A stretch of 64,000 nt of DNA from Omnitrophica WOR_2 bacterium RIFCSPHIGHO2_02_FULL_50_17 (GCA_001805645.1 MHGQ01000049.1:66216-130215); one strand, 5' to 3'; positions 3,154 through 33,894 are shown, counted from the stretch's first letter. Notes: generated from the sequence alone by a model not told the origin. A program made the numbers and translations.

Positions 3154-4143
3154 CTAATCCTTTATCCCTTTGATCCTTTCCTCCTCTAATCCTTTATCTC
3201 TATTTTTATGCCACTCATACGTCCTGCGGATCCCCTCTTCCAGGGATACCTTCGACTGCCACCCCAACTGCCTGATATCGCTGTTGTCCAACAGTTTCTG
3301 CAGAGTCCCGTCGGGCTTGGACTCATCAAAGACAACCTCTCCCTGGAAACCTGAGACCCGTTGAATCATCTGCGCTAACTCTTGAATAGTTAAATCGCTC
3401 CCGTAACCCATATGAATCACCTTCTCTCCCTCGTAGCGATCCATCAAAAGATGGCACCCTTGCGCAAAGTCATCCGTATAGAGAAATTCCCGTCTGGGCC
3501 GGCCCGTGCCCCAGACGACAACCTGCTTTTGATTATTCTTAACCGCCTCGCAAAATTTATAGATTAAAGCGCCCATCACATGCGCCGTTTCCAAGCAAAC
3601 ATCGCTTCCAGGGCCGAAAAGGGTCGGAGGAATAGCGACAATGGCATTAAGCCCGTATTGCCTGCGGTAGGCCTGGCAGAGTTTAATGCCGGCGATCTTG
3701 GCAACGGCATACGGTTCGCTTGTTTTTTCCAGGTCCCCTGTCAGCAGGTATTCCTCTCGAATAGGCTGAGGACAGTTTTTGGGATAAACACAGGAACTCG
3801 CCAAAAAGAGCAGCTTTTTCACGCCAAATTTATGCGCCGCATAGATAACATTGTTCTGGCTCTCCAGATTATGATAAATAAACTCCCCCGCCTGCCTTTG
3901 ATTGGCCTCAATGCCGCCGGAGCGCGTCGAGGCCAGAAACACATATTCCGGCCGGTATTTAGAGAAACATTCGTAAACGGACGGCTGTATCGTTGTGTTG
4001 AGGGCTATCGCCGACGAAGAAACAACATTTTTGAAACCATAGGATTGAAAATGCCCCGTTAACGTCTGCTCGAGGATGTCGTTATGTCCGACAATGAGAA
4101 TTTTCGCATTTTTATCCATAACGTAAATCGCGTAGGGGCGCAT
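3154..4143 (-). CDS. fcl: GDP-L-fucose synthase-like (Fcl/WcaG family) 3,5-epimerase/4-reductase
   Basis: KILIVGHNDIL..., LLFLASSCVYPK and AIPPTLFGP are typical Fcl motifs. The probable start is MDKNAKIL. Confidence 0.7.
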   Translation of the reverse strand: MRPYAIYVMDKNAKILIVGHNDILEQTLTGHFQSYGFKNVVSSSAIALNTTIQPSVYECFSKYRPEYVFLASTRSGGIEANQRQAGEFIYHNLESQNNVIYAAHKFGVKKLLFLASSCVYPKNCPQPIREEYLLTGDLEKTSEPYAVAKIAGIKLCQAYRRQYGLNAIVAIPPTLFGPGSDVCLETAHVMGALIYKFCEAVKNNQKQVVVWGTGRPRREFLYTDDFAQGCHLLMDRYEGEKVIHMGYGSDLTIQELAQMIQRVSGFQGEVVFDESKPDGTLQKLLDNSDIRQLGWQSKVSLEEGIRRTYEWHKNRDKGLEEERIKGIKD

Positions 4144-4160: not shown

Positions 4161-4206
4161 TGCTCAGTCGGAGTCCCGACCGACGAAGTCGGAGTGTCGG
4201 GACAAT
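4161..4206. repeat. REP-like cluster of overlapping inverted repeats built on GTCGGAGTCCCGAC / GTCGGGAC
   Basis: Arms gtcccgac (4173-4180) and gtcgggac (4196-4203), plus gtcgg/ccgac pairs. It lies in the 74-bp gap between the transketolase-C stop and the fcl start. The same motif in reverse orientation recurs at 21881-21902. Confidence 0.5.
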
Positions 4207-4217
4207 ACGCCCCTACA

Positions 4218-4754
4218 TTATTTTTCGTTATACAAATTCCCATGTTCAATCAGAAGGGTGGCCCTGGCCTCTTCGCGTTCCAGGGCATGTTTGTACGCCG
4301 GGAAGATTTCATCCGGCTCATTGAGTTCAACGACCTCAATCCAGGAAAACATGCGCCGGAAAGCCTCGGCGTAATTGCCTACGTGCTGATGCCCGGGATG
4401 GACAGGCGCATCCGGCCCTGAGGCCGCGCGGATAATGACCTTAGGCAGAACTCGGTTGGAACTGATGGCCGGCATTTTATCCAGCATATTCACCATATCC
4501 GCCGTTGCCAATAAAAGAAAATTCTGCCGAGGGTACACAGATATGGGGATATATCCCGCCAGGGCCAGGCCTAAGGTAAACTGCATCTGAAAGCTTTCGT
4601 TGACAGGCATCTCAACTCTTTTATCGGGGGAGACGTCCTGAAGGGTGGAATACATAAATGTCCCAGGCCCTGCTACGGTCTGGCCGATAAAAATCGTTTT
4701 AGGGTGCTGGGCAACCCATTCCATCGTTCGTTTAATTTCGTCAAAGTATCGCAT
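4218..4754 (-). CDS. Transketolase-like C-terminal subunit (split ThDP enzyme)
   Basis: 178 aa with pyrimidine-binding / C-terminal-half transketolase-like sequence (FIGQTVAGPG..., LLLATADMV). It is adjacent to the N-terminal-subunit gene, as in sugar-cluster split transketolases. Confidence 0.6.
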   Translation of the reverse strand: MRYFDEIKRTMEWVAQHPKTIFIGQTVAGPGTFMYSTLQDVSPDKRVEMPVNESFQMQFTLGLALAGYIPISVYPRQNFLLLATADMVNMLDKMPAISSNRVLPKVIIRAASGPDAPVHPGHQHVGNYAEAFRRMFSWIEVVELNEPDEIFPAYKHALEREEARATLLIEHGNLYNEK

Positions 4755-25518: not shown

Positions 25519-26446
25519 CCCTCCCGATAACGGCTATGATTCTCTCCGCCACACCTGCCACCGTATCATTCTTCTCAATCATAATCCATTGCAATCTCTT
25601 TTCTCTGCGAAACCACGTAAGCTGGCGTTTGGCAAACCGGCGGGTATTCAGCTTAATCAAATGCCTTGCCTGATTTTCATCATATTCCCCGTTTAAATAA
25701 CCCCGAATTTCCCGAATGCCGATAATCCGTTCAGCCGTCAGGCTGAGCGTTAAATGTCCCAGGCCGTTAATCTCCTGCACAATCCCGTCACAAAACATCT
25801 TATCCACCCGCTCATTGATTCTTTCATGCAATCTTTGCCTCTCCATGCTCAAGGCCACGATCTTTATATCATATTTCCCCCAAATCCCCTCACGGTTTTT
25901 CTGGAGACTGGAAATAGGCTGGCGGCGCAAAATCCACACCTCCAAGGCACGGATGACGCGCCTTAGATCCCGGGGATGGATTTTATCCGCGGTCTTAGGA
26001 TCCGCCTTTTTGAGCCTATCATAAAGGTAATGAGGACCGTGCATCTGCGCCTCGGCTTTAAGCCCCTCCCGCAAAAGGCTGTTTTTAGGACCGTCCGGAA
26101 AAATCCCGTCTAGAAGAATCTGCATATAAAGACCGCTTCCTCCGACAACAATAGGGATATGACGGCGGGCATGGACCGCCTGAATGGCCTCCATGGCCAA
26201 AGCGGCAAACCGCGCCGCATCAAATTCATCCCGCACAGAGACAATATTAATCAGATGATGAGGGACAGCGCGCAGCATTTCATCCGATGGTTTATTCGTG
26301 GCAATATTGATTTCTTTGTAAACCTGCATGGAGTCGCAGGAGACGATTTCCCCTTGCATGCGCTGGGCTAAAAGGCAGGCCGTCTCGGATTTACCGACCG
26401 CTGTCGGCCCGACGATAAAGATAATTTTCTGAGAATTTACACCCAT
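25499..26446 (-). CDS. miaA: tRNA dimethylallyltransferase
   Basis: IVGPTAVGKSETA P-loop and IPTP family sequence. Confidence 0.9.
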   Translation of the reverse strand: MGVNSQKIIFIVGPTAVGKSETACLLAQRMQGEIVSCDSMQVYKEINIATNKPSDEMLRAVPHHLINIVSVRDEFDAARFAALAMEAIQAVHARRHIPIVVGGSGLYMQILLDGIFPDGPKNSLLREGLKAEAQMHGPHYLYDRLKKADPKTADKIHPRDLRRVIRALEVWILRRQPISSLQKNREGIWGKYDIKIVALSMERQRLHERINERVDKMFCDGIVQEINGLGHLTLSLTAERIIGIREIRGYLNGEYDENQARHLIKLNTRRFAKRQLTWFRREKRLQWIMIEKNDTVAGVAERIIAVIGRDDVLRE

Positions 26447-26453
26447 TATGAAA

Positions 26454-27227
26454 CTACGGGTAAATCTGGGTAGGATACCCTAATTGGGCTAACTTAATCT
26501 TCAGTTTTTGCGCCTCTTTCAAAATGGCCAGCTGACCAACCCGCACACGATAGAACCTGCGATCGCGGGAATCCATGGTTTCCACAATATAAGCGTACTC
26601 TCCTTTTCGTTTTAACTCGGCCGCCAAGGCCTCTGCCTTCTCGCGCTCCGAGAAAGAGCCCACCTGCACAGCAAAGTATTGTTTCTCTTCGAGCAGTTGT
26701 CTGGCTGTAAAAACCTCCAAACTGTTAGGGAAAGTGCGGATAATTTTCTCCAGACAATCGCGGGCATCTTCCCATTGGGCAAGTTTTAAATTAACCCTCG
26801 CTAGTTTTAAATACACTAAGCTCATCGCTTCCGGCCGCGGAGTCTGCCGTAGAAACTCTTGGGCCACGCCATAAGCCTCCTTATATTTTTCCTCCAGATA
26901 ATAGGTATCAAGCAATCCCAGAGACACCTTATCCCGCAACTGCGGGTCAATCCCGTTTTTTCCCGCCCCTTGGAATGAGGCCCGGGCTTCCTTGTAGTTC
27001 CCTAATTTCAATTGGCTTAATCCCAAATAATAGCGGACTTTCTGCGCAACGGCCTTCTGAGGCTTATGGGAAAGTCCCTGTTGGGCGAATTCTTGGGCTT
27101 GGGCATAATCCTCTTTGAGGATCGCCGTTTCAATGTCGGCTAACGCCGCCCAGGCCGCATTCCCGTGAAAGAAAAAAATACAAACGCCTACTGCAGGAAA
27201 AATCAAACTTAGTCCGCGTCTGTGCAT
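26454..27227 (-). CDS. Periplasmic TPR-repeat protein with C-terminal SPOR domain
   Basis: Signal peptide, TPR-like repeats, and a C-terminal SPOR-like domain (FAVQVGSFSEREKAEALAAELKRKGEYAYIVE...FYRVRVGQL). Confidence 0.7.
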   Translation of the reverse strand: MHRRGLSLIFPAVGVCIFFFHGNAAWAALADIETAILKEDYAQAQEFAQQGLSHKPQKAVAQKVRYYLGLSQLKLGNYKEARASFQGAGKNGIDPQLRDKVSLGLLDTYYLEEKYKEAYGVAQEFLRQTPRPEAMSLVYLKLARVNLKLAQWEDARDCLEKIIRTFPNSLEVFTARQLLEEKQYFAVQVGSFSEREKAEALAAELKRKGEYAYIVETMDSRDRRFYRVRVGQLAILKEAQKLKIKLAQLGYPTQIYP

Positions 27228-27244
27228 AGGAGTTATCTTAACAA

Positions 27245-27274
27245 AAATTACAGCTTTTTCTAGTGCATTGTCAA
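27245..27274 (-). promoter_or_regulatory. Candidate sigma-70 promoter for the TPR-SPOR gene
   Basis: On the minus strand, -35 TTGACA (27274-27269), an 18-nt spacer, and -10 TAATTT (27250-27245). Confidence 0.35.
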
Positions 27275-27298
27275 AAAAGTGGCAGGCCTAGGGATGGC

Positions 27299-27380
27299 GT
27301 CATTGCGAGGCCGTTAGGCCGAAGCAATCTCATCCGTCGACGTTGGGATTGCTTCGCTCCCGTTGGTCGCTCGCAATGGC
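27299..27380. other. Nested long inverted repeat (two stems separated by internal loops)
   Basis: Outer stem cattgcgag (27301-09) with ctcgcaatg (27370-78). Inner stem gaagcaatc (27321-29) with gattgcttc (27347-55), around a 17-nt loop containing cgtcgacg. The internal bubble segments ccgttagg and ccgttggt are direct repeats. Confidence 0.5.
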
Positions 27381-27433
27381 ACATTGCTTATTGCGTTTGT
27401 ATTAGATCAAAACTTTCTCTGACGCAATGAAAT

Positions 27434-27470
27434 AGCAAGGCCTTAATCCAGAAAGGACTAAGGCCTTGCT
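27434..27470 (-). terminator. Hairpin just downstream of the repeat-protein gene; likely a terminator
   Basis: Perfect 12-bp arms agcaaggcctta and taaggccttgct around a 13-nt loop. On the minus RNA it is followed by AUUUCAUU. Confidence 0.5.
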
Positions 27471-27490
27471 ACGTCATCCCCGCAATAATG

Positions 27491-29065
27491 TCATCTTCTT
27501 CTTTTCATGGCTCCTGAGGCAGACCCACCCTTTTGCGGATTTCTCTTAGCGGCGCCATAAGCTTTCTTTGCAGCTCCAGGATGCCTCTCGGCGGCCCGAT
27601 AAACTTTCTTCGCCGCACCAGGATGTTCCTGGGCCGCGCGATAAGCCTTTTTGGCAGCGGCGGGATGATTCTCCGCCGCTCGGTAGGCTTTCTTTGCCGC
27701 TCCAGGATGCCTCTCGGCGGCCCGGTAAACTTTCTTCGCCGCATCAGGATGTTTCTGGGCATCCTTATAGAGTTGTTTTGCCGCACCAGGATGTTCCTGG
27801 GCCGCACGGTAAACCTTTCTGGCAGCATCGGGATGCTGGGCGGCATCTTTGAGCACCTTAGGGGGTAGAGCCGGCTGAATGCGGTCACGGACATCTTCTC
27901 TGCGATCGCGCACATCCTCCTGGCGATCAATAACATTTTCCCGTCGATCCCGAACATCTTCTCTGCGATCACGCACATCCTCACGCCGGTCACGAACATC
28001 TTCTCTTTGATCCCAAACGTCCTCCCTCGCGTCACGGATATCTTCGAGTTTATCCTTACGGCCGCCTTCATGCTGACTGTCCCAGACATCTTCCCGTGCG
28101 TCCAGAATATCTTCACGGCGGTCGCGGACATCTTCGCGTTTGTCCCACACATCCTCCCGATGGTCGCGGACGTCTTCGCGCCGGTCATGGACATCTTCCC
28201 GCCGGTCGCGATAATCTTCCCTGCGGTCACGCACATCCTCAACACGATCCTTAAAATGCGGGCCAGTCCCTGGGCCTCCAACAGGCCCCGGCGGATTCAC
28301 TCCAGGATGCTCCTCTAAAAACTTGCGATGTTTGTACGCCTCTTGCGCCACCTCCGGATGCTGATTAAGCCACTCCCGTTTTTCATAAAGTTTTTTCGCC
28401 ACATCAGGATGGTTCTCCAAAAACTCCCGATTTTTGAAAACCTCTTTAGCGACACCAGGATGTTGACCCAGCCACTCGCGATTTCCGTAAACTTCTTGAG
28501 CCACGCCGGGATGCTCCTTAAGCCATTGACGGTTGGCGATTAGCTTTTGGGCAATGCCGGGATGTTCCTCAAGCCATTTGTGGTCTTTATAAAGATACGG
28601 AAGCTCTCCCTTATGTTCAATAAGCTTCTGCTTCTCAGCCTGTTTGTAGGCCTTGGCCTCGTCCAAATCCAGGGCGCCGTCGCCGTCGGCATCAAACATG
28701 ACAGCCCTGTCCCAGCGCTCATCCCCAAAGGCCTGGGCCTCTCGCTGTGTGCGGTTATTCGTCCAATCCTCTTCTGTTAAAAGCCCGTCATCGCCGGCCA
28801 GTGTGTCAAATTTACTCCTGTCATAATAGTCATCATACTTCTCTATGATCCCTTCCCCGGTTGCGCCGGCGTGTCTTTCCTTGAATTCCTCCAGCCTTTC
28901 CTGCCTGGTTTCGATAACCTGCGCCGCGCCGGGATGCTTCTCCTCAAATGCCTCGATGCGTTCGGTACGCTTTTCGATGGCGGTGGAGATTCCGCCGCCT
29001 TCCTGCGCCCCCGCGACCGGCACCATCCAGATGCCGAACGCTAAAACAAGGAATAATCTCTTCAT
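27491..29065 (-). CDS. Secreted tandem-repeat protein (EF-hand, WLxxHPGVA 17-mers, REDVRDR heptads, HPGAAKKAYRAAE 13-mers)
   Basis: The true start is probably MKRLFLVLAFGIWMVPVAGA, a signal peptide, preceded by the RBS GGAGGG. The track ORF begins 23 codons earlier. It carries a canonical EF-hand loop (DADGDGALDLDE), about 6 repeats of 17 aa, about 20 repeats of 7 aa, and about 8 repeats of 13 aa. The repeats are also visible at DNA level. Confidence 0.7.
   Translation of the reverse strand: MKRLFLVLAFGIWMVPVAGAQEGGGISTAIEKRTERIEAFEEKHPGAAQVIETRQERLEEFKERHAGATGEGIIEKYDDYYDRSKFDTLAGDDGLLTEEDWTNNRTQREAQAFGDERWDRAVMFDADGDGALDLDEAKAYKQAEKQKLIEHKGELPYLYKDHKWLEEHPGIAQKLIANRQWLKEHPGVAQEVYGNREWLGQHPGVAKEVFKNREFLENHPDVAKKLYEKREWLNQHPEVAQEAYKHRKFLEEHPGVNPPGPVGGPGTGPHFKDRVEDVRDRREDYRDRREDVHDRREDVRDHREDVWDKREDVRDRREDILDAREDVWDSQHEGGRKDKLEDIRDAREDVWDQREDVRDRREDVRDRREDVRDRRENVIDRQEDVRDRREDVRDRIQPALPPKVLKDAAQHPDAARKVYRAAQEHPGAAKQLYKDAQKHPDAAKKVYRAAERHPGAAKKAYRAAENHPAAAKKAYRAAQEHPGAAKKVYRAAERHPGAAKKAYGAAKRNPQKGGSASGAMKRRR
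27540..27850. repeat. Intragenic tandem DNA repeat, about 39-bp period (encodes the HPGAAKKAYRAAE 13-mers)
   Basis: Periodic recurrence of ccaggatg...cggcggcccgataaactttcttcgccgc. Confidence 0.7.
27873..28255. repeat. Intragenic tandem DNA repeat, 21-bp period (encodes the EDVRDRR heptads)
   Basis: Recurrent gcggtcacggacatcttctct-like units. Confidence 0.7.
28300..28610. repeat. Intragenic tandem DNA repeat, 51-bp period (encodes the WLxxHPGVAxEVYxNRE 17-mers)
   Basis: CCAGGATG / CCGGGATG recurs every 51 nt. Confidence 0.7.
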
Positions 29066-29163
29066 GGTTTTACCCTCCCTTTCCAATCTTGCCGCATGTT
29101 TTGTACGCTTGGTCATATCTATCCCATTAAACACAGTGTTTGTCCAAAAGTTTCGCAGAAATT

Positions 29164-29937
29164 TTACCGACTGCCTCGTTTGCGGTAAATTGGCCCCGGG
29201 CCGGGGCCGCCCGATTTCTGACGCACGTCAGAAATCTCCCCGCCACCCGCCGAAGGCGAGGCTCGCCCTTGACGGCCCGCCGCGGGACGCGGCCTGTTTT
29301 CTTCCAAAGGACGCCGCGCCTGTACAGGAGGCTCTTTAAGAAACCGGCCTCCCCGACGTTCATTTGTTCTTTGCCTAAACTCTTCCCTTAATTCCTGCTT
29401 TCGTTCCGGCGCAAGATTCTGCCATTTTTCCCTTCGTTCCCTTAGCTGCTGTCTTTGTTCAGGGGGCAATCCCCTGAAACGCTTATACCGCTCCCGGATC
29501 AACTGCTTTTTCTCAGGCGGAAGCTGCTGCCATCTTTTATACTTTTCAACAATCTCCTGACGCCTGTTCGGCGGCAAATTCCTAATCCTTCCCCAATTCT
29601 GACGTACTTTCTTTTTTAATTCGGGAGGCAGCTGTTGATACCGCTGAAATCTCTGCTTGATTTCAGCTTTCTGGGCCGGGTCCAGATTTCTCCATCGCTC
29701 TAATCGCTTCCTTAACTTCTGTTTCTGTTCAGGGGGTAGTTGTTGCCACCGGCGGCGGGCCTGCGGAGAAACTTCTCCGCCCTCACCAACACCTTCCTGA
29801 ACGGCTTTTTGTTGTTGTGACGGCATGGGTGTTGTCTGCGCTTGGTCTTGCGCCGTATAAGCGATGCCGCAAGCCAACACAGCAATCAGAACAAAAGAAA
29901 ATATATACAATCGGCGTCGTTTATTGTTCATTTCCAC
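29164..29937 (-). CDS. DUF3106-like periplasmic repeat protein (W-x2-L-P-P-E-x-K/R repeats)
   Basis: Signal anchor, then about 8 repeats such as RWQQLPPEQKQKLRKRLERWRNLDPAQK. From memory this matches the DUF3106 pattern. The tail is Arg/Gly-rich. Confidence 0.6.
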   Translation of the reverse strand: MEMNNKRRRLYIFSFVLIAVLACGIAYTAQDQAQTTPMPSQQQKAVQEGVGEGGEVSPQARRRWQQLPPEQKQKLRKRLERWRNLDPAQKAEIKQRFQRYQQLPPELKKKVRQNWGRIRNLPPNRRQEIVEKYKRWQQLPPEKKQLIRERYKRFRGLPPEQRQQLRERREKWQNLAPERKQELREEFRQRTNERRGGRFLKEPPVQARRPLEENRPRPAAGRQGRASPSAGGGEISDVRQKSGGPGPGPIYRKRGSR

Positions 29938-30151
29938 TCACCTCCCATTCATCTAAGACCTCATAGTCATCCAAAAAAACCGCATTTTCCTCCAAGAACT
30001 CCAGACTCTCTAGAAATTCCAGATTCGTGATAACCTCCGCGTCCTCTTCGGAAATTCCCTCCGCTTCTTGAGCGGAGTCAGTAACCACGTCCGCCGCAAG
30101 GGGCGCTGTCCATATCAAGACCAAAATACCGGCCATGAACAACGTTCTCAT
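29921..30151 (-). CDS. Small secreted acidic protein (76 aa)
   Basis: A signal peptide (MRTLFMAGILVLIWTAPLAA) followed by the acidic LEFLESLEFLEE...DDYEVLDEWEV. The motifs echo the C-terminal tail of the upstream anti-sigma factor. Confidence 0.5.
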   Translation of the reverse strand: MRTLFMAGILVLIWTAPLAADVVTDSAQEAEGISEEDAEVITNLEFLESLEFLEENAVFLDDYEVLDEWEVSGNEQ

Positions 30152-30729
30152 ATGAGCTCCAAACTATCCGCGTTCTCGATCACTTCCAGATCCTCAAAAA
30201 AATCTATGTCCTGAATAATGTCAAAATTTTCGGCCAGCTCGATGTCTTCGGCCGCCCCCAGAGAAGGATGGTCGAAGACCATCTCCAGTTCCTCCTGGTT
30301 CAAGTTGGCGGCCAGATCCTGCGCCTCCCGCATCTGCCAGTAATTGCGCAAAGAAAAAATCCCGGTAAAAACCAGGACGCAAACCGCGGCGAAGACAGGC
30401 GCTAAGCGTTTCCTGCGCAAGCCCTCAAGTGATTCCTGGATCCCCCGCGCGACCCTTTCCCTCCATGGCCGCTGAAGGGAAACCCTAGTCCAAAAGCGGG
30501 AGACATAGCCGGGGGACGGCTCAATGTTTTGCCACTCTCCCAGCATCTTCCACGAGCGTTCCAGGGCATGGAGTTCCTTCTGGCAGGCCGCGCAGGACGC
30601 CAGATGCTCTTTAACGGCCATGGTCTCTTGCGGGTCCGATTCACCGTCTAAATAAACAGGGATGAGTTTTTTTATCTCAACACAGCGCATTTTTGTCCCT
30701 CCCACATTTATAACACATCGCCTATTCAA
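30148..30729 (-). CDS. Anti-sigma factor, zf-HC2 type, single TM with an acidic periplasmic tail
   Basis: The HLASCAACQ motif (H-x3-C-x2-C), the TM segment LAPVFAAVCVLVFTGIFSL, and a C-terminal acidic region. The probable start is the internal MRCVEIKK. Confidence 0.7.
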   Translation of the reverse strand: MNRRCVINVGGTKMRCVEIKKLIPVYLDGESDPQETMAVKEHLASCAACQKELHALERSWKMLGEWQNIEPSPGYVSRFWTRVSLQRPWRERVARGIQESLEGLRRKRLAPVFAAVCVLVFTGIFSLRNYWQMREAQDLAANLNQEELEMVFDHPSLGAAEDIELAENFDIIQDIDFFEDLEVIENADSLELI

Positions 30730-31336
30730 AAGTTTCGGCGGGCGTTAATTTATTTTTAAGGTTCTCTTTGGCCCGGCTCAGAAGCGATTTGACCGCCTTA
30801 ACCGATAGGCGCATGGTCTGAGCAATCTCCTCATAGGAAAACTGTTCGTACCGGCGCAAAATCACGGCCATACGCTGGTTCTGCGGCAAAGAGTCAATGG
30901 CCTCCCGCACCGCCGCCGCGGCCTCCTCGCGCAATATCTGTTCATCCGCCCGCGGGGCCGCTGTATCCTCTATTTGTCTCTCCATCGGGCCGTCATCGGA
31001 TACAAAAGGATCATCGAGGGAAACAGCTATTTTTTTATGATGCCTCAGCTCATTAAGGCTGATATTCTTTGCGATGGTATAAATCCATGTCTGAAACTTG
31101 GATTTTGGCCGATACCGCGACGCCGCATGGTAGACCTTCAGAAAAACCTCCTGGGTTAAATCCTCAGCGATTTCCCGGCGGCCGACAAACCGAAAGATAA
31201 AATTGAAAAGACGGGGATAATATTTGTGCATGAGGGTCTCAAAGGAACGATTATTGCCCCCTTGCACCTCAAGCATTAAACGGACATCAGGGTCATCCAG
31301 GAAGGGATTGGGTTTATCCACAAAGAGCATGATCAA
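30722..31336 (-). CDS. ECF (sigma-24 / RpoE-type) RNA polymerase sigma factor
   Basis: Sigma-70 region 2 (LTQEVFLKVY...) and a region 4 HTH (FSYEEIAQTMRLSVKAVKSLLSRA). Confidence 0.85.
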   Translation of the reverse strand: MIMLFVDKPNPFLDDPDVRLMLEVQGGNNRSFETLMHKYYPRLFNFIFRFVGRREIAEDLTQEVFLKVYHAASRYRPKSKFQTWIYTIAKNISLNELRHHKKIAVSLDDPFVSDDGPMERQIEDTAAPRADEQILREEAAAAVREAIDSLPQNQRMAVILRRYEQFSYEEIAQTMRLSVKAVKSLLSRAKENLKNKLTPAETFE

Positions 31337-32480
31337 GATCGTTAATCAAATCCTGCACACCTTCGATACCGGCCGAGATGCGGATTGTCTCCGGGGTAAT
31401 ACCGGAGGTCTTTAAAGCCGCCTTCCCCATGGAGGCATGGCTCATCGAATAAGGGTGTTCGACGAGAGATTCCACCCCGCCTAACGATTCGGCCAAAGAA
31501 AAATATTTTAACTTGCGGAAGAACGCATCCAGCGGGACGTTCTGCGTATCCAGCTCAAACGATACTATCCCGCCGAAACCTGTCATCTGCTTTTTAATGA
31601 GGGCGTACTGAGGATGACTCTGGAGTCCTGGATAATAGACCTTCTTGACAGATTTATGTTTCTCTAAGAATTGGGCAATTGTCCTGGCATTGGCCTGATG
31701 GGCTTCCATGCGCTGAGCCAGGGTCTTCACCCCGCGTAAAACCAGCCAGGCATCAAAGGGGGCCTGCGAGACGCCGAGGGCGTTAATGAGAAAGCGCCCT
31801 TTTCTCTCCAGCTCCTTGTTCCCGTAAACAAGGGCGCCGCCCACGACATCGCTGTGACCGTTCAGATATTTGGTCGTTGAATGCATCACCATGTCCGCTC
31901 CGAATTCAAAGGGCTTTTGAAAATACGGCGAGAGAAACGTGTTATCAACAACCGTCAAAATATCTTTCTTGCGGGCAAGAGCAATAACCGCCTCCAAATC
32001 CACAATGTTTAAAAGCGGGTTGGAGGGCGTCTCAATCCAGACCATCTTTGTTTTTTTCGTCAAGGCCTTGCGAAGTGTGTTCGGATCGCGCATATGGACA
32101 AAATGGAAATCAATTCCCCAAGAGGAAAAAACCTGGTCAAAGAGCCGGTAGGTCCCGCCGTAGATATCATCACCGGTAATCACATGATCCCCCGGCTTTA
32201 AAAAAAACAGGGCGGTCGTTATAGCCGCCATGCCGGTGGCCGTGGCCGAGGCCCCCACACCGCCTTCTAAAGAGGCGATGTTTTCCTCAAGGGCTGTCCG
32301 GGTCGGATTGCCGCTTCGGGTATAATCATAGCCCTTATTCTTTCTCAAGGCATCGAAATAAAACGTAGATGTGGGATAAATCGGGGTTGTAACGGAATTG
32401 TAACTGGCATCTTTGTAGACACCCGTGTGAACGGCTCTTGTGCGGATATCTTTTTTATCCCGCTGTAGAGGCATATTCAT
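31314..32480 (-). CDS. Cys/Met-metabolism PLP-dependent enzyme (cystathionine gamma-synthase / beta-lyase family)
   Basis: PIYPTSTF, the TRSGNPTR motif, and the STTKYLNGHSD PLP-lysine motif. Confidence 0.85.
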   Translation of the reverse strand: MNMPLQRDKKDIRTRAVHTGVYKDASYNSVTTPIYPTSTFYFDALRKNKGYDYTRSGNPTRTALEENIASLEGGVGASATATGMAAITTALFFLKPGDHVITGDDIYGGTYRLFDQVFSSWGIDFHFVHMRDPNTLRKALTKKTKMVWIETPSNPLLNIVDLEAVIALARKKDILTVVDNTFLSPYFQKPFEFGADMVMHSTTKYLNGHSDVVGGALVYGNKELERKGRFLINALGVSQAPFDAWLVLRGVKTLAQRMEAHQANARTIAQFLEKHKSVKKVYYPGLQSHPQYALIKKQMTGFGGIVSFELDTQNVPLDAFFRKLKYFSLAESLGGVESLVEHPYSMSHASMGKAALKTSGITPETIRISAGIEGVQDLINDLDHALCG

Positions 32481-32854
32481 CCTATCAACTGCTCAACCTT
32501 GGCCTTCAGCACATTATTATCAAACGGCTTCTGCAGCGTATCCTCAACGCCCATTCTTTTGATCTCCCCTTGATTCGCCGCATTGATAACGGCCGAAACA
32601 ACCAGGATCTTAACTCCCTTATTGTCTGGGTCATTACGAATAGCTGTGCACAATTTATAGCCGTCCACCCGCGGCATCCGTAAGTCCAAGATCACCAAAT
32701 CGGGTTTGCCTTCCATGAAATATTGCACGGCCTCAAGACCGTCGTAGGCCACCTTAAGATCGTATTTATTCTCTAGGCTCAACGTCCGCTTGATCGCCTT
32801 GGCCATGGCCTCGTCATCATCAACAATTAAAATCTTCTTTTGATCCCCACCCAT
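32477..32854 (-). CDS. Single-domain response regulator (REC)
   Basis: KILIVDDDEAM...DLVILDLRMP...ILVVSA. Length is 125 aa. Confidence 0.8.
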   Translation of the reverse strand: MGGDQKKILIVDDDEAMAKAIKRTLSLENKYDLKVAYDGLEAVQYFMEGKPDLVILDLRMPRVDGYKLCTAIRNDPDNKGVKILVVSAVINAANQGEIKRMGVEDTLQKPFDNNVLKAKVEQLIG

Positions 32855-32886
32855 TTCAGTATCCCCCCAAATGTTCTCAGCCGGTT

Positions 32887-33894
32887 TTAGTTCACCTGCA
32901 GCACCATCCGGTAACGGGCCTTCCCCTGCCGAACTTTCTCGACAGCCGTGTTGACCTCCTTTAAAGGAAGCACCTCTGTTTGGGCCCGGATATTATGGCG
33001 GGCAACAAAGGCAAGCATATCCCTGATTAAGGACGGGCTTCCGATCACGCTGGCGATCACCCCCTTCTGCCCCGAGATGATAGCGCCGGCAGGGACTTCC
33101 AGCGGCTCAGGGACAGCCCCGACGACAATGAGCCGGCCGTTGGGTCTGAGCATACTCAGATACATCGCCCAGTCCAGATTGACATTTACGGTCGTCAAGA
33201 GAAAATCAAAACGGCGTTTCAACTTTTCCAGCCACGATTTATCTGTACTGCTTACGAAATAATCCGCTCCCAACTGCTTGGCCTCTTGGACCTTATCCGG
33301 CGTATGCGAAAAAGCCGTGACCTCACATCCCATGCCATGGGCGAATTGAAGGGCAAAATGCCCCAGGCCCCCTATCCCGATGACCCCGACCTTATCGGCT
33401 GCCTTGACAAGCCGGCGCAACGGCGAATAGACGGTTATCCCGCCGCAAAGAAGCGGGGCCGCCGTTTGAGAATCTATCTCCTCCGGAATCGGAAAAGCGA
33501 AGCGGCTGTCGACCATCACCTTCTCGGCAAATCCGCCGTAGTGCCCGACGGCCGTCGCCACATCATCGGCGCACAAGTTCTCTTCGCCTCTTAAACACCA
33601 CTCACAACGCATACAGCTTCCCGCCTGCCAGCCCACCCCGGCACGCTGTCCGATCTTTAAATCTTTAACATCCTGGCCGATGCGCTCAACTGTCCCGACG
33701 ATCTCATGCCCCGGCACAAGGGGATATTGACTGATCTGCCAGTCATTATCAATAAGATGAATATCGCTGTGGCAAATTCCGCAGTGGGAAATCTTAATAA
33801 CAGCCTCCATCGGCCCTAACTGCTTAGGCTCCTCATAGCGAAATTCCCTTAATTTCTCCCCGGCCTTATAGACGGCATAACAGCGGATACCCAT
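32887..33894 (-). CDS. Zinc-dependent alcohol dehydrogenase (CAD/YahK-like)
   Basis: GICHSD Zn ligands, the structural-Zn Cys cluster CMRCEWCLRGEENLC, and the GIGGLGH Rossmann motif. Confidence 0.85.
   Translation of the reverse strand: MGIRCYAVYKAGEKLREFRYEEPKQLGPMEAVIKISHCGICHSDIHLIDNDWQISQYPLVPGHEIVGTVERIGQDVKDLKIGQRAGVGWQAGSCMRCEWCLRGEENLCADDVATAVGHYGGFAEKVMVDSRFAFPIPEEIDSQTAAPLLCGGITVYSPLRRLVKAADKVGVIGIGGLGHFALQFAHGMGCEVTAFSHTPDKVQEAKQLGADYFVSSTDKSWLEKLKRRFDFLLTTVNVNLDWAMYLSMLRPNGRLIVVGAVPEPLEVPAGAIISGQKGVIASVIGSPSLIRDMLAFVARHNIRAQTEVLPLKEVNTAVEKVRQGKARYRMVLQVN

What the first reader, a model, noticed from the sequence alone, without database searches (positions are those of the whole stretch)
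27491..31336. Five-gene ECF sigma module ending in two secreted repeat proteins; candidate uncharacterised envelope-signalling system
The five genes are co-directional with overlaps or tiny gaps: an ECF sigma (30722-31336), a zf-HC2 anti-sigma with a periplasmic acidic tail (30148-30729), a 76-aa secreted acidic protein (29921-30151), a DUF3106-like protein made of W-x2-L-P-P-E-x-K/R repeats (29164-29937), and a 525-aa secreted protein built entirely of three different tandem repeat types plus a canonical EF-hand loop (27491-29065). From memory, ECF sigma / anti-sigma / DUF3106 triads occur elsewhere, and no function is known for them. The small acidic paralog and the giant repeat/EF-hand protein extend that triad into something I do not recognise. 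A hairpin (27434-27470) closes the unit. One hypothesis is a Ca2+ or divalent-cation, or envelope-stress, sensing circuit in which the repeat proteins act as periplasmic ligands, buffers or decoys for the anti-sigma.
Basis: partly seen in the sequence, partly recalled or inferred. Interest (0 to 1): 0.85.

Follow-up and report, generated by a model that had tools for sequence, protein, structure and literature searches.

The report
ECF sigma module with anti-sigma mimic
This is a real, conserved but uncharacterised envelope-signalling gene cluster of an Omnitrophica groundwater bacterium: an alternative sigma factor, its membrane anti-sigma factor, a small secreted copy of the anti-sigma's acidic tail, a very basic helical-repeat protein (DUF3106), and a charged repeat protein that has its own copy of the promoter this sigma most likely uses.

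Summary
The five minus-strand genes exist as described, with small start-codon corrections. Pfam confirms the ECF sigma, the zf-HC2 anti-sigma and DUF3106. The other two proteins match no family.

Comparison with about 20 loci splits the cluster in two.
- **Conserved four-gene core:** sigma, an anti-sigma with an acidic tail, a small secreted protein that mimics that tail, and DUF3106. It occurs in Omnitrophota and in Desulfobacterota-type genomes. The acidic tail and DUF3106 also occur together in two distant loci that lack a zf-HC2 match.
- **Facultative fifth gene:** present in 6 of 13 module loci.

A bipartite ECF-type motif, G(A/G)AACTTTT-N10-TGTGTTTAA, occurs exactly twice in the 64-kb window (0.02 expected). 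One copy lies at the sigma/anti-sigma junction and one lies 60 nt upstream of the fifth gene. The same positions hold in orthologous loci. In two or three Desulfobacterota-type loci the motif lies upstream of sigma instead.

I infer negative feedback without sigma autoinduction, with the repeat protein as a regulon output. I also infer that DUF3106 binds the acidic tail and that the small protein competes for it. Calcium sensing remains untested. I rate this a new variant of a known kind, of moderate to high interest.

The parts
30722..31336 (-). ECF sigma factor gene. Public gene calls start at the TTG 31336 (204 aa) or the ATG 31330 (202 aa). Either start overlaps the 3' end of the upstream Cys/Met-metabolism PLP enzyme gene (31314-32480), by 17 or 23 nt.
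   Evidence: Sigma70_r2 at 9e-20, Sigma70_r4_2 at 2e-17, TIGR02937 at 1e-36. It is 52% identical to the L011 ortholog. No cognate motif lies upstream of it anywhere in the window.
30708..30736 (-). P_anti: an ECF-type bipartite promoter motif, GAAACTTTT-N10-TGTGTTATAA. It straddles the sigma stop codon and ends 18 nt before the anti-sigma ATG.
   Evidence: It is one of only two window hits at 3 or fewer mismatches, against 0.02 expected. The same position holds in L095, L097, L102, L098, L011, L015, L099, L096, L108 and L112, 16-20 nt from the ATG in the nine loci measured.
30148..30690 (-). Membrane anti-sigma factor of 180 aa. It has an N-terminal zinc-binding anti-sigma domain (C3, H29, C33, C36), one transmembrane helix, and a 65-aa periplasmic acidic tail (net charge -18) that ends in ...EDIELAENFDIIQDIDFFEDLEVIENADSLELI.
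   Evidence: zf-HC2 at 1.6e-10. C3/H29/C33/C36 are invariant in six orthologs. Tail charge.
29921..30151 (-). Small secreted acidic protein of 76 aa. A signal peptide is followed by a 55-aa mature part (net charge -19) that carries the same EVIxNLE(F/L)LE(S/N)LE motif as the anti-sigma tail, so it is a tail mimic.
   Evidence: No Pfam or NCBIfam match. The ortholog profile aligns to the anti-sigma tail with hhalign probability 93.3%, E = 2.7e-7. A counterpart is present in 14 loci. The word-index search found 16 relatives, all 74-90 aa and unnamed.
29164..29931 (-). DUF3106 protein of 255 aa. It has an N-terminal hydrophobic helix (signal peptide or membrane anchor), a disordered linker, a core of eight 15-residue helices joined by L-P-P turns (net charge +25), and a disordered basic tail.
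29126..29154 (-). P_big: the second copy of the promoter motif, GAAACTTTT-N10-TGTGTTTAAT, which matches the consensus perfectly. It lies 60 nt upstream of the fifth gene's ATG.
   Evidence: Zero mismatches. The same position holds in L095, L011, L015, L108 and L112, and also upstream of a stand-alone repeat-protein gene in L013/L014.
27491..29065 (-). Secreted repeat protein of 524 aa. In order: a signal peptide; an N-terminal region with an EF-hand-like loop (nt 28658-28693); six 17-aa WLxxHPxVA repeats (about nt 28292-28582); a REDVRDR heptad array (nt 27878-28255) predicted as a long antiparallel helical hairpin that turns at HEGG; and seven 14-aa HPGAAKKxYRAA repeats (about nt 27542-27853).
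   Evidence: In the AlphaFold2 model, helices 271-332 and 337-395 have pLDDT 88-94. Homologs share the heptad array and its central WDxxHxGG...DKxED break. 382 clusters at 50% identity match the array. No PDB relative was found.
27434..27470 (-). Terminator-like hairpin that closes the unit.
   Evidence: An 18-bp stem within a structure of -40.4 kcal/mol for the 76-nt stretch folded, z = -7.2, followed by AUUUCAUU. The simple terminator scan did not list it.

Best explanation
This is a membrane-spanning ECF sigma/anti-sigma signalling module, with a periplasmic three-protein regulatory layer and one dedicated output gene.

**Shown**
- Four genes form a core that is conserved across phyla: the sigma factor, a zinc-binding single-pass anti-sigma factor with an acidic (L/I)xx(L/I)E(D/N)-type tail, a small secreted protein carrying the same motif, and the very basic helical-repeat protein DUF3106.
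- One bipartite motif of the GGAAC-N17-GTT class lies at fixed positions: immediately before the anti-sigma gene and before the fifth gene. In two or three Desulfobacterota-type orthologous loci it lies before the sigma gene instead.

**Inferred**
1. The motif is this sigma's own promoter.
2. In Omnitrophota, sigma is made from the upstream housekeeping operon, whose last gene it overlaps. Once free, it induces only its inhibitor, the two periplasmic partners and the REDVRDR repeat protein. That gives negative feedback without positive autoregulation.
3. The basic core of DUF3106 (+25) binds the acidic periplasmic tail of the anti-sigma (-18). I favour a model in which this shields the tail from the protease that starts anti-sigma destruction, as RseB does for RseA and CpxP does for CpxA.
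4. The small acidic protein (-19) competes for DUF3106 and so sets the threshold.
5. The repeat protein, a long charged helical hairpin with optional EF-hand and HP-repeat additions, is an envelope effector rather than a regulator.
For: **Gene identities.**

**Conservation as a unit with different flanks.**
- All five genes: L011, L015, L095, L112.
- L108: four genes, lacking the small acidic protein.
- Four genes without the fifth: L097, L102, L103, L017, L019, L027.
- L098: three genes, lacking both the fifth gene and the small acidic protein.

**Tail mimicry.** The small-protein and anti-sigma profiles align over the tail with hhalign probability 93%, E = 2.7e-7.

**Acidic tail and DUF3106 together.** They co-occur in the module loci. 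They also co-occur in two distant loci, L110 and L111, where the membrane protein has no zf-HC2 match. One database protein carries both the DUF3619 and DUF3106 domains. L016 encodes a related sigma (49% identity) whose anti-sigma lacks an acidic tail, and it also lacks DUF3106.

**Charge complementarity.**

**Promoter motif.**
- Two hits in 64 kb against 0.02 expected.
- Eighteen aligned sites have invariant AAC, TT and G-G-TT positions at fixed spacing.
- Hits in 965 kb of loci are almost confined to module positions.
- The motif ends 16-20 nt before the anti-sigma ATG in the nine loci measured.
- The junction motif is intergenic in most loci, so sigma's coding sequence does not explain its conservation.
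- It lies upstream of sigma in L017 and L019, and by eye in L027.

**Structure models.**
Against: - No transcription data exist. That the motif is this sigma's promoter is inferred from its position and its class.
- No interaction was tested. AlphaFold2 was run on single chains only.
- Own-locus pairs of small protein and tail are no more similar than cross-locus pairs (60.2 against 59.0). There is therefore no co-variation signal.
- The small protein is missing from L098 and L108, so it is dispensable.
- DUF3106 is not CpxP- or Spy-like by fold, and nothing resembles RseB. The shielding direction is therefore a guess. DUF3106 could equally activate, or could be only an output.
- Three repeat-protein genes elsewhere (L012, L107, L109) lack the motif.
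- The junction motif is weaker in the window (3 mismatches), in L102 and L112 (4) and in L108 (5).
Confidence: 0.6

Rival explanations
1. This is an ordinary ECF sigma/anti-sigma pair. The three downstream genes are only regulon outputs, such as envelope proteins or chaperones induced by stress, and have no regulatory role. The acidic tail and the small protein resemble each other only because both are acidic and amphipathic.
For: No interaction evidence exists. There is no locus-specific co-variation. The small protein is absent from L098 and L108. The low-complexity acidic composition inflates similarity scores.
Against: The shared motif is positional, EVIxN(L/I)(E/D)LLE(N/D)(L/F)E, and profile-profile alignment supports it. 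Acidic tail and DUF3106 co-occur even where the anti-sigma's cytoplasmic domain belongs to another family. L016, whose anti-sigma has no acidic tail, also has no DUF3106. A DUF3619+DUF3106 fusion protein exists.
Confidence: 0.2
2. This is a divalent-cation (Ca2+) sensing circuit. The acidic tail, the small acidic protein and the EF-hand repeat protein bind or buffer Ca2+/Mg2+, and cation occupancy controls anti-sigma stability.
For: The loop DADGDGALDLDE fits the EF-hand core pattern. Homologs P0004, P0025 and P0031 carry precomputed EF-hand Pfam hits, and L011 has two canonical loops. Periplasmic segments with 29-40% Asp+Glu could bind cations.
Against: The window's EF-hand match is below the Pfam cutoff (E = 0.07), and that part of the model is low confidence. 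The EF-hand region is missing from the fifth-gene proteins of L015, L108 and L112. The whole fifth gene is missing from 7 of 13 modules. Ca2+ binding therefore cannot be the conserved sensing principle.
Confidence: 0.1
3. The fifth gene is an unrelated neighbour. The shared motif is a binding site for another regulator, or a chance similarity, and not this sigma's promoter.
For: The fifth gene is facultative. Related repeat-protein genes sit in unrelated contexts, next to RND efflux genes or alone. Three of these lack the motif.
Against: The motif lies upstream of the fifth gene in all six module loci that have one, despite different flanks. It also lies upstream of a stand-alone repeat-protein gene in L013/L014. 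It has the fixed spacing and -35/-10 form of ECF promoters, and in L017 and L019 it occupies the classical autoregulatory position upstream of sigma. Chance expectation in the window is 0.02.
Confidence: 0.08

Closest known systems
RpoE-RseA-RseB (E. coli) and AlgU-MucA-MucB (Pseudomonas) envelope-stress systems
   Same: An ECF sigma is held by a single-pass anti-sigma factor. The anti-sigma's periplasmic part would be bound by a co-encoded periplasmic protein that modulates its destruction. The genes lie in one co-directional cluster. (This is my own knowledge of those systems. The parallel in mechanism is inferred.)
   Different: - DUF3106 has no sequence or fold similarity to RseB or MucB.
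- The anti-sigma here has a zinc-binding zf-HC2 domain and only a 65-aa acidic tail.
- There is an extra secreted mimic of the tail.
- The cognate promoter lies between the sigma and anti-sigma genes, not upstream of sigma.
CpxP/CpxA feedback inhibition (LTXXQ family: CpxP, Spy, ZraP)
   Same: A small, basic, helical periplasmic protein is induced by the pathway it inhibits. It would bind an acidic periplasmic sensor segment and could be titrated away. The DUF3106 repeats (W-x2-L-P-P-E-Q-K/R) look like LTXXQ motifs on the surface. In L016, which has a related sigma and the same promoter motif, the protein in the equivalent position gives a weak LTXXQ match (E = 0.004).
   Different: - There is no significant LTXXQ or Metal_resist match (E = 0.07).
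- The predicted fold is an eight-helix zigzag repeat, not the CpxP/Spy cradle.
- The partner is an anti-sigma factor, not a histidine kinase.
Zinc-binding anti-sigma (ZAS) pairs whose promoters are of the GGAA(C/T)-N17/18-GTT class, such as SigR-RsrA, SigH-RshA and SigE-RseA of actinobacteria
   Same: The anti-sigma has a C-x25-H-x3-C-x2-C motif with RsrA-like spacing (weak TIGR03988 match at 2e-6). The promoter has an AAC -35 element and a GTT -10 element 17 nt apart. The comparison with those promoters is from my own knowledge.
   Different: - This anti-sigma is membrane-anchored with a periplasmic tail, whereas RsrA and RshA are soluble redox sensors.
- There are extra periplasmic partners.
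- Sigma is not preceded by its own promoter in the Omnitrophota loci.
PhyR-NepR-EcfG partner switching (mimicry in ECF regulation)
   Same: A protein segment that mimics one partner (there the sigma, here the anti-sigma tail) competes for a common binding protein.
   Different: That switch is cytoplasmic, driven by phosphorylation, and mimics the sigma. Here the mimic is a secreted peptide-like protein that copies the anti-sigma's periplasmic tail, and competition between the two is only inferred.
Proteobacterial sigma / DUF3619 / DUF3106 gene triads (uncharacterised)
   Same: DUF3106 follows an ECF-like sigma gene and a small membrane protein with an acidic LxDLE-type C-terminal tail (L110, L111). 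There is a weak DUF3619 match and a DUF3619+DUF3106 fusion protein.
   Different: - The membrane protein there lacks the zf-HC2 domain.
- No tail mimic was recognised in L110, and the extra 108-aa protein in L111 was not shown to be one.
- There is no repeat-protein gene.
- No function is published. Searches for DUF3106, PF11304 and DUF3619 found nothing relevant.

Membership tests
ECF (group 4) sigma-70 factors | Only regions sigma-2 and sigma-4 are present, and the protein is about 200 aa long. | tested here: met
   Sigma70_r2 at 9e-20 and Sigma70_r4_2 at 2e-17. The region 3 match is only E = 0.03. TIGR02937 scores 125.7 bits against a cutoff of 42.9.
ECF (group 4) sigma-70 factors | Co-encoded cognate anti-sigma factor. 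| tested here: met
   A zf-HC2 protein is encoded immediately downstream in the window and in all orthologous loci.
ECF (group 4) sigma-70 factors | Autoregulation from a cognate promoter upstream of the sigma gene. This is usual for the family but not obligatory. | tested here: not met
   No motif with 4 or fewer mismatches lies upstream of sigma in the window or in the Omnitrophota loci. It lies at the sigma/anti-sigma junction instead. It does lie upstream of sigma in L017 and L019.
Class I (zinc-binding, ZAS) anti-sigma factors, Pfam zf-HC2 | N-terminal anti-sigma domain with an H-x3-C-x2-C motif. | tested here: met
   PF13490 at 1.6e-10, 41.3 bits against a cutoff of 22.2. C3, H29, C33 and C36 are invariant in six orthologs.
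Class I (zinc-binding, ZAS) anti-sigma factors, Pfam zf-HC2 | Physical binding and inhibition of the cognate sigma. | not testable with these tools
   This needs co-expression or a binding assay.
DUF3106 (PF11304) | Profile match above the Pfam gathering score. | tested here: met
   99.3 bits against a cutoff of 24.3, E = 2e-28, in two stretches.
EF-hand calcium-binding proteins | Profile match above the gathering score, and a paired helix-loop-helix. | tested here: not met
   EF-hand_1 scores 13.1 bits against a cutoff of 25.4. One loop fits the 12-residue core pattern. The preceding loop is degenerate. The model is low confidence in this region.
LTXXQ / CpxP-Spy-ZraP periplasmic proteins | Profile match to PF07813 or PF13801, and the cradle-shaped helical hairpin fold. 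| tested here: not met
RseB/MucB anti-sigma-binding proteins | Sequence or fold similarity to RseB/MucB. | tested here: not met

The most novel reading that the evidence does not exclude
DUF3106 proteins would be the dedicated periplasmic receptors for a widespread class of ECF anti-sigma factors that end in an acidic LxxLE(D/N) tail. In one branch (Omnitrophota and Desulfobacterota) a secreted copy of that tail acts as a competitive decoy. This would be a periplasmic, mimicry-based partner-switch with no described precedent in ECF signalling. In Omnitrophota it would be combined with a rewired circuit in which sigma drives only its inhibitors and a family of charged helical-hairpin envelope proteins.
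Probability: 0.35. Interest if true: 0.8.

Novelty: new variant of a known kind. Interest (0 to 1): 0.6.

Why it matters
ECF sigma factors are among the largest bacterial signalling families, yet most groups have no known input mechanism. This analysis turns an unannotated five-gene string, in which every product is a 'hypothetical protein', into a testable circuit.

- It proposes a function for DUF3106 and, by extension, for the proteobacterial DUF3619/DUF3106 triads: receptor for the anti-sigma tail.
- It identifies a new small protein family that mimics an anti-sigma tail.
- It defines a promoter motif that can be used to predict the regulon in Omnitrophota and Desulfobacterota-type genomes, none of the module-carrying members of which found here is a cultured isolate (all are metagenome-assembled).
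- It shows a natural case in which the cognate promoter has moved from upstream of sigma to between the sigma and anti-sigma genes. That predicts pulse-like or homeostatic behaviour instead of bistable autoinduction.
- It links a few hundred clusters of REDVRDR helical-hairpin proteins to envelope-stress control.

Tried and rejected
- **Literature:** searches for DUF3106, PF11304 and DUF3619 returned nothing relevant. The main text of the ECF re-classification paper does not mention DUF3106, and its supplements are not held.
- **Repeat-protein model against PDB (Foldseek):** the best E-value is 0.66, with only generic TPR-like hits.
- **Co-variation test:** own-locus pairs of small protein and tail are no more similar than cross-locus pairs (60.2 against 59.0). 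There is no evidence of gene conversion or of partner-specific co-evolution.
- **Metagenome scan with the six-sequence DUF3106 alignment:** it failed because no stretch was conserved enough. I replaced it with a three-sequence anti-sigma alignment.
- **Sigma-70 promoter scan of the region:** no more hits than in shuffled sequence.
- **Rfam:** no RNA family in 26400-32000.
- **Lipoprotein idea for DUF3106:** the VLAC near the N-terminus is not conserved in orthologs.
- **Gene-conversion or contingency-locus idea for the repeats:** I saw only one 14-aa unit of difference among near-identical strains.

Full report

Yes. One search lists five co-directional minus-strand ORFs at the stated positions.
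- **Sigma.** Pfam and NCBIfam identify an ECF sigma: Sigma70_r2 at 9e-20, Sigma70_r4_2 at 2e-17, and TIGR02937 at 126 bits.
- **Anti-sigma.** It matches zf-HC2 at 1.6e-10.
- **DUF3106.** It matches PF11304 at 2e-28.
- **The 76-aa protein and the 524-aa protein** match nothing above threshold. The EF-hand_1 match of the large protein is E = 0.07.

Three start codons need comment.
- **Anti-sigma:** the most likely start is the ATG at 30690 (180 aa), not the TTG at 30729. The ortholog alignment, the public gene calls and the promoter position all agree on this.
- **Sigma:** public gene calls use either the TTG at 31336 or the ATG at 31330.
- **DUF3106:** the likely start is the ATG at 29931.

The large protein is not built entirely of repeats. 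Its first ~160 residues are unique and carry DADGDGALDLDE, which fits the 12-residue EF-hand core. After that come six 17-aa WLxxHPxVA units, about 15-17 REDVRDR heptads, and seven 14-aa HPGAAKKxYRAA units. The hairpin at 27434-27470 is strong: the 76-nt stretch that contains it folds at -40.4 kcal/mol, z = -7.2.

The organism is an Omnitrophica WOR_2 groundwater MAG. In the public record, the four proteins whose exact sequences I could look up are called 'hypothetical protein'. Contigs L001-L010 are near-identical strains and say nothing about deeper conservation.

**2. Conservation: a four-gene core plus a facultative fifth gene**

The best distant homolog of the large protein is P0004 (47% identity). 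It sits in L011 in the same five-gene order but between different neighbours: EPSP synthase upstream and mreBCD-PBP2-rodA downstream. Identities to the window proteins there are 52% for sigma, 37% for the anti-sigma and 27% for the small protein.

I then ran three further searches and screened the resulting loci with ORF calling and phmmer:
- a scan of species-representative genomes with the sigma alignment;
- a metagenome scan with the anti-sigma alignment;
- exact-protein look-ups.

The outcome was as follows.
- **All five genes:** window, L095, L112, L011 and L015.
- **L108:** sigma, anti-sigma, DUF3106 and the repeat protein, but no small acidic protein.
- **Four-gene core, no fifth gene:** L097, L102, L103 (here the small protein and DUF3106 are in swapped order), L017 (labelled Thermodesulfobacteriota), L019 (labelled Desulforapulum) and L027 (labelled Deltaproteobacteria).
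- **L098:** no fifth gene and no small acidic protein.

L097, L102 and L098 share the window's downstream synteny (TPR-SPOR gene, miaA, hflX). In them the DUF3106 gene is followed directly by the TPR-SPOR gene. The fifth gene is therefore an insertion or a loss at that spot.

Among the 80 closest sigma relatives in the genome scan, only the closest ones carry DUF3106: L015 (61% sigma identity), L017 (42%), L019 (41%) and L027 (38%). L016 has a related sigma (49% identity), but its anti-sigma has no acidic tail and the locus has no DUF3106.

**3. The small protein mimics the anti-sigma tail**

The anti-sigma consists of a cytoplasmic zinc-binding domain with invariant C3, H29, C33 and C36, one transmembrane helix, and a 65-aa periplasmic tail. 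The tail has a net charge of -18 and the consensus ExIELxxDFEVIxNIDLLEDLExIENLD.

The small protein is a signal peptide followed by about 55 residues with a net charge of -19 and no Lys or Arg. Its consensus is S-x-ED-x-EVI-x-NLELLENLE-x-L.

Profile-profile comparison aligns the mature small protein to the anti-sigma tail over 42 columns, with probability 93.3% and E = 2.7e-7. Own-locus pairs are no more similar than cross-locus pairs. The two therefore share a family motif and are not recent copies. Sixteen relatives of the small protein were found, all 74-90 aa and all unnamed.

**4. DUF3106**

In the AlphaFold2 model, built from 39 sequences, residues 55-194 have pLDDT above 94. The model shows eight 15-residue helices separated by three-residue L-P-P turns. 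Before them come a hydrophobic N-terminal helix and a disordered linker, and after them a disordered basic tail. The core carries a net charge of +25.

I looked up two distant DUF3106 proteins. Both lie downstream of an ECF-like sigma gene and a small single-pass membrane protein. Those membrane proteins have no zf-HC2 match, yet they end in an acidic tail of the same kind:
- L110: ...DADLQMLQDMDMLGAFNE
- L111: LLLEDLELMQSPENLELSEDLEFYDWL, with a weak DUF3619 match.

One database protein carries both DUF3619 and DUF3106 domains. The pairing of an acidic tail with DUF3106 thus survives a change in the anti-sigma's cytoplasmic domain. This is the main argument that the two interact.

**5. A shared ECF-type promoter and its unusual placement**

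The gaps upstream of the fifth gene in the window, L095, L011 and L015 share the motif G(A/G)AACTTTT-N10-TGTGTTTAAT. The same motif lies upstream of the sigma gene in L017 and L019, and by eye in L027 with a one-base deletion.

In the 64-kb window the pattern has exactly two hits at 3 or fewer mismatches, against 0.02 expected:
- 29154-29126, with no mismatch, 60 nt before the fifth gene's ATG;
- 30736-30708, straddling the sigma stop codon, 18 nt before the anti-sigma ATG.

The junction site recurs in L095, L097, L102, L098, L011, L015, L099, L096, L108 and L112. In the nine loci measured it ends 16-20 nt before the ATG. In most of these loci it is fully intergenic, so sigma's coding sequence does not explain its conservation.

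Eighteen aligned sites give invariant A3, A4, C5, T7, T8, G21, G23, T24 and T25 at fixed spacing. This corresponds to an AAC -35 element and a GTT -10 element 17 nt apart. From my own knowledge, that is the layout of SigR/SigH/SigE-type ECF promoters.

Across 965 kb of fetched loci, hits at 3 or fewer mismatches are almost confined to these positions. One further hit lies about 20 nt upstream of a stand-alone repeat-protein gene in L013/L014.

No site lies upstream of sigma in any Omnitrophota locus. In the window and in L112, sigma overlaps the preceding Cys/Met-metabolism PLP enzyme gene. That gene in turn overlaps a response-regulator gene.

ECF sigmas usually autoregulate (PMC7826278). Here the cognate promoter appears to drive only the anti-sigma, the small protein and DUF3106, with a second copy driving the repeat protein. 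I infer negative feedback without positive autoinduction.

**6. The fifth protein**

Homologs share only the heptad array and its conserved central break, WDxxH(D/E)GGxxDKxEDIRD. The model places two ~60-residue helices (271-332 and 337-395, pLDDT 88-94) on either side of a turn at HEGG, forming a long antiparallel hairpin. The 17-aa HP repeats are also confident (pLDDT 86-91). The EF-hand region and the C-terminal repeats are not. No PDB relative was found.

The array alone finds 382 clusters at 50% identity among 1.84 billion representatives. Most are proteins of 100-400 aa.

The other parts of the protein are interchangeable:
- L015 and L108 have only an N-terminal coiled region plus the array.
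- L112 lacks the EF-hand region and the 17-aa repeats.
- L011 has two canonical EF-hand loops.

Repeat number varies even between close relatives. P0001 (83% identity) has about three heptads, and strain L002 has one extra 14-aa unit.

Other repeat-protein genes lie next to RND efflux genes (L012, L107) or stand alone (L109), and these lack the motif. I read the fifth gene as an output (effector) of the sigma in the lineages that have it, not as part of the sensing core.

**7. Mechanism**

Shown:
- the gene identities;
- the conserved core;
- the tail mimicry;
- the charge complementarity;
- the promoter motif and its positions.

Inferred:
- The motif is this sigma's promoter.
- DUF3106 binds the acidic tail.
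- The small protein competes for DUF3106.
- DUF3106 shields the tail from proteolysis, by analogy with RseB and CpxP. This step is a guess at the direction of the effect.
- The repeat protein is an envelope effector.

The Ca2+ hypothesis cannot explain the conserved core, because the EF-hand part is the least conserved element.

**8. Novelty**

The kind of system is known: an ECF sigma with a membrane anti-sigma and periplasmic modulators. The accessory set is not described in any literature I could search. That set comprises DUF3106 as a candidate tail receptor, a secreted tail mimic, the relocated promoter, and REDVRDR hairpin proteins as outputs. I cannot exclude that the ECF Hub resource lists DUF3106 as conserved genomic context for some ECF group, because its supplements were not available. 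I rate this a new variant of a known kind, with interest 0.6.

Noticed in passing
window 27228-27433 (between the terminator hairpin and the TPR-SPOR gene at 26454-27227): A roughly 200-nt non-coding stretch contains an imperfect long palindrome (CATTGCGAGCGACC...GGCCTCGCAATG). Its core occurs only once in the window. No Rfam family matched convincingly; the best was SSRC10 at E = 0.21. It might be a REP- or MITE-like element.
   Followed up: partly
L002 11087-12703 and L001 10221-10895, compared with the window: Near-identical strains differ by one extra 14-aa HPxAAKK unit in the repeat protein (538 against 524 aa). They also differ by a premature stop in the disordered C-terminal tail of DUF3106 (224 against 255 aa).
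   Followed up: partly
L012 599-8053 and L107 1-5146: Stand-alone REDVRDR repeat proteins (P0021, P0013) lie directly after an RND efflux operon and a conserved 96-aa P-II-like protein (PF00543, E = 6e-5). These genes lack the ECF motif. This is a second recurrent context for the repeat-protein family.
   Followed up: partly
L016 321-2700: A related sigma (49% identity, in a MAG labelled Elusimicrobia) has motif sites at 1967 and 2089 (1 and 3 mismatches) and a weaker one at 913 (4 mismatches). Its anti-sigma has no acidic tail. In place of DUF3106 there is a 138-aa protein with a weak LTXXQ (CpxP/Spy family) match, E = 0.004.
   Followed up: partly
P0002, P0013, P0020, P0021, P0026 and L015 6194-7114 (C-termini): Many repeat-protein homologs end in a conserved Gly/Arg-rich motif, GVRDHG(K/R)GxG(R/A)GKGQGG. 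The window protein lacks it and has HPGAAKK repeats instead. Its function is unknown.
   Followed up: no
L103 4306-6177: In this high-GC metagenome locus the gene order is permuted to sigma, anti-sigma, DUF3106, small acidic protein. No promoter motif was found at 4 or fewer mismatches.
   Followed up: no
L015 about 3920-3990 and L102 about 4200-4270: A GC-rich hairpin lies between the upstream PLP enzyme gene and the sigma gene in these relatives, for example GGGCGGCGGCGACGATTCGTCGCCGCCGCCC in L015. In the window the two genes overlap instead. How sigma is transcribed there is unclear.
   Followed up: no
window 31314-33894: The sigma gene is the last in a tightly packed run: a zinc alcohol dehydrogenase gene, a stand-alone receiver-domain response regulator gene, the Cys/Met PLP enzyme gene, and then sigma. 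This run is conserved in L112 and in part in L095, L102, L098 and L015. The response regulator could be a second input to sigma expression.
   Followed up: no
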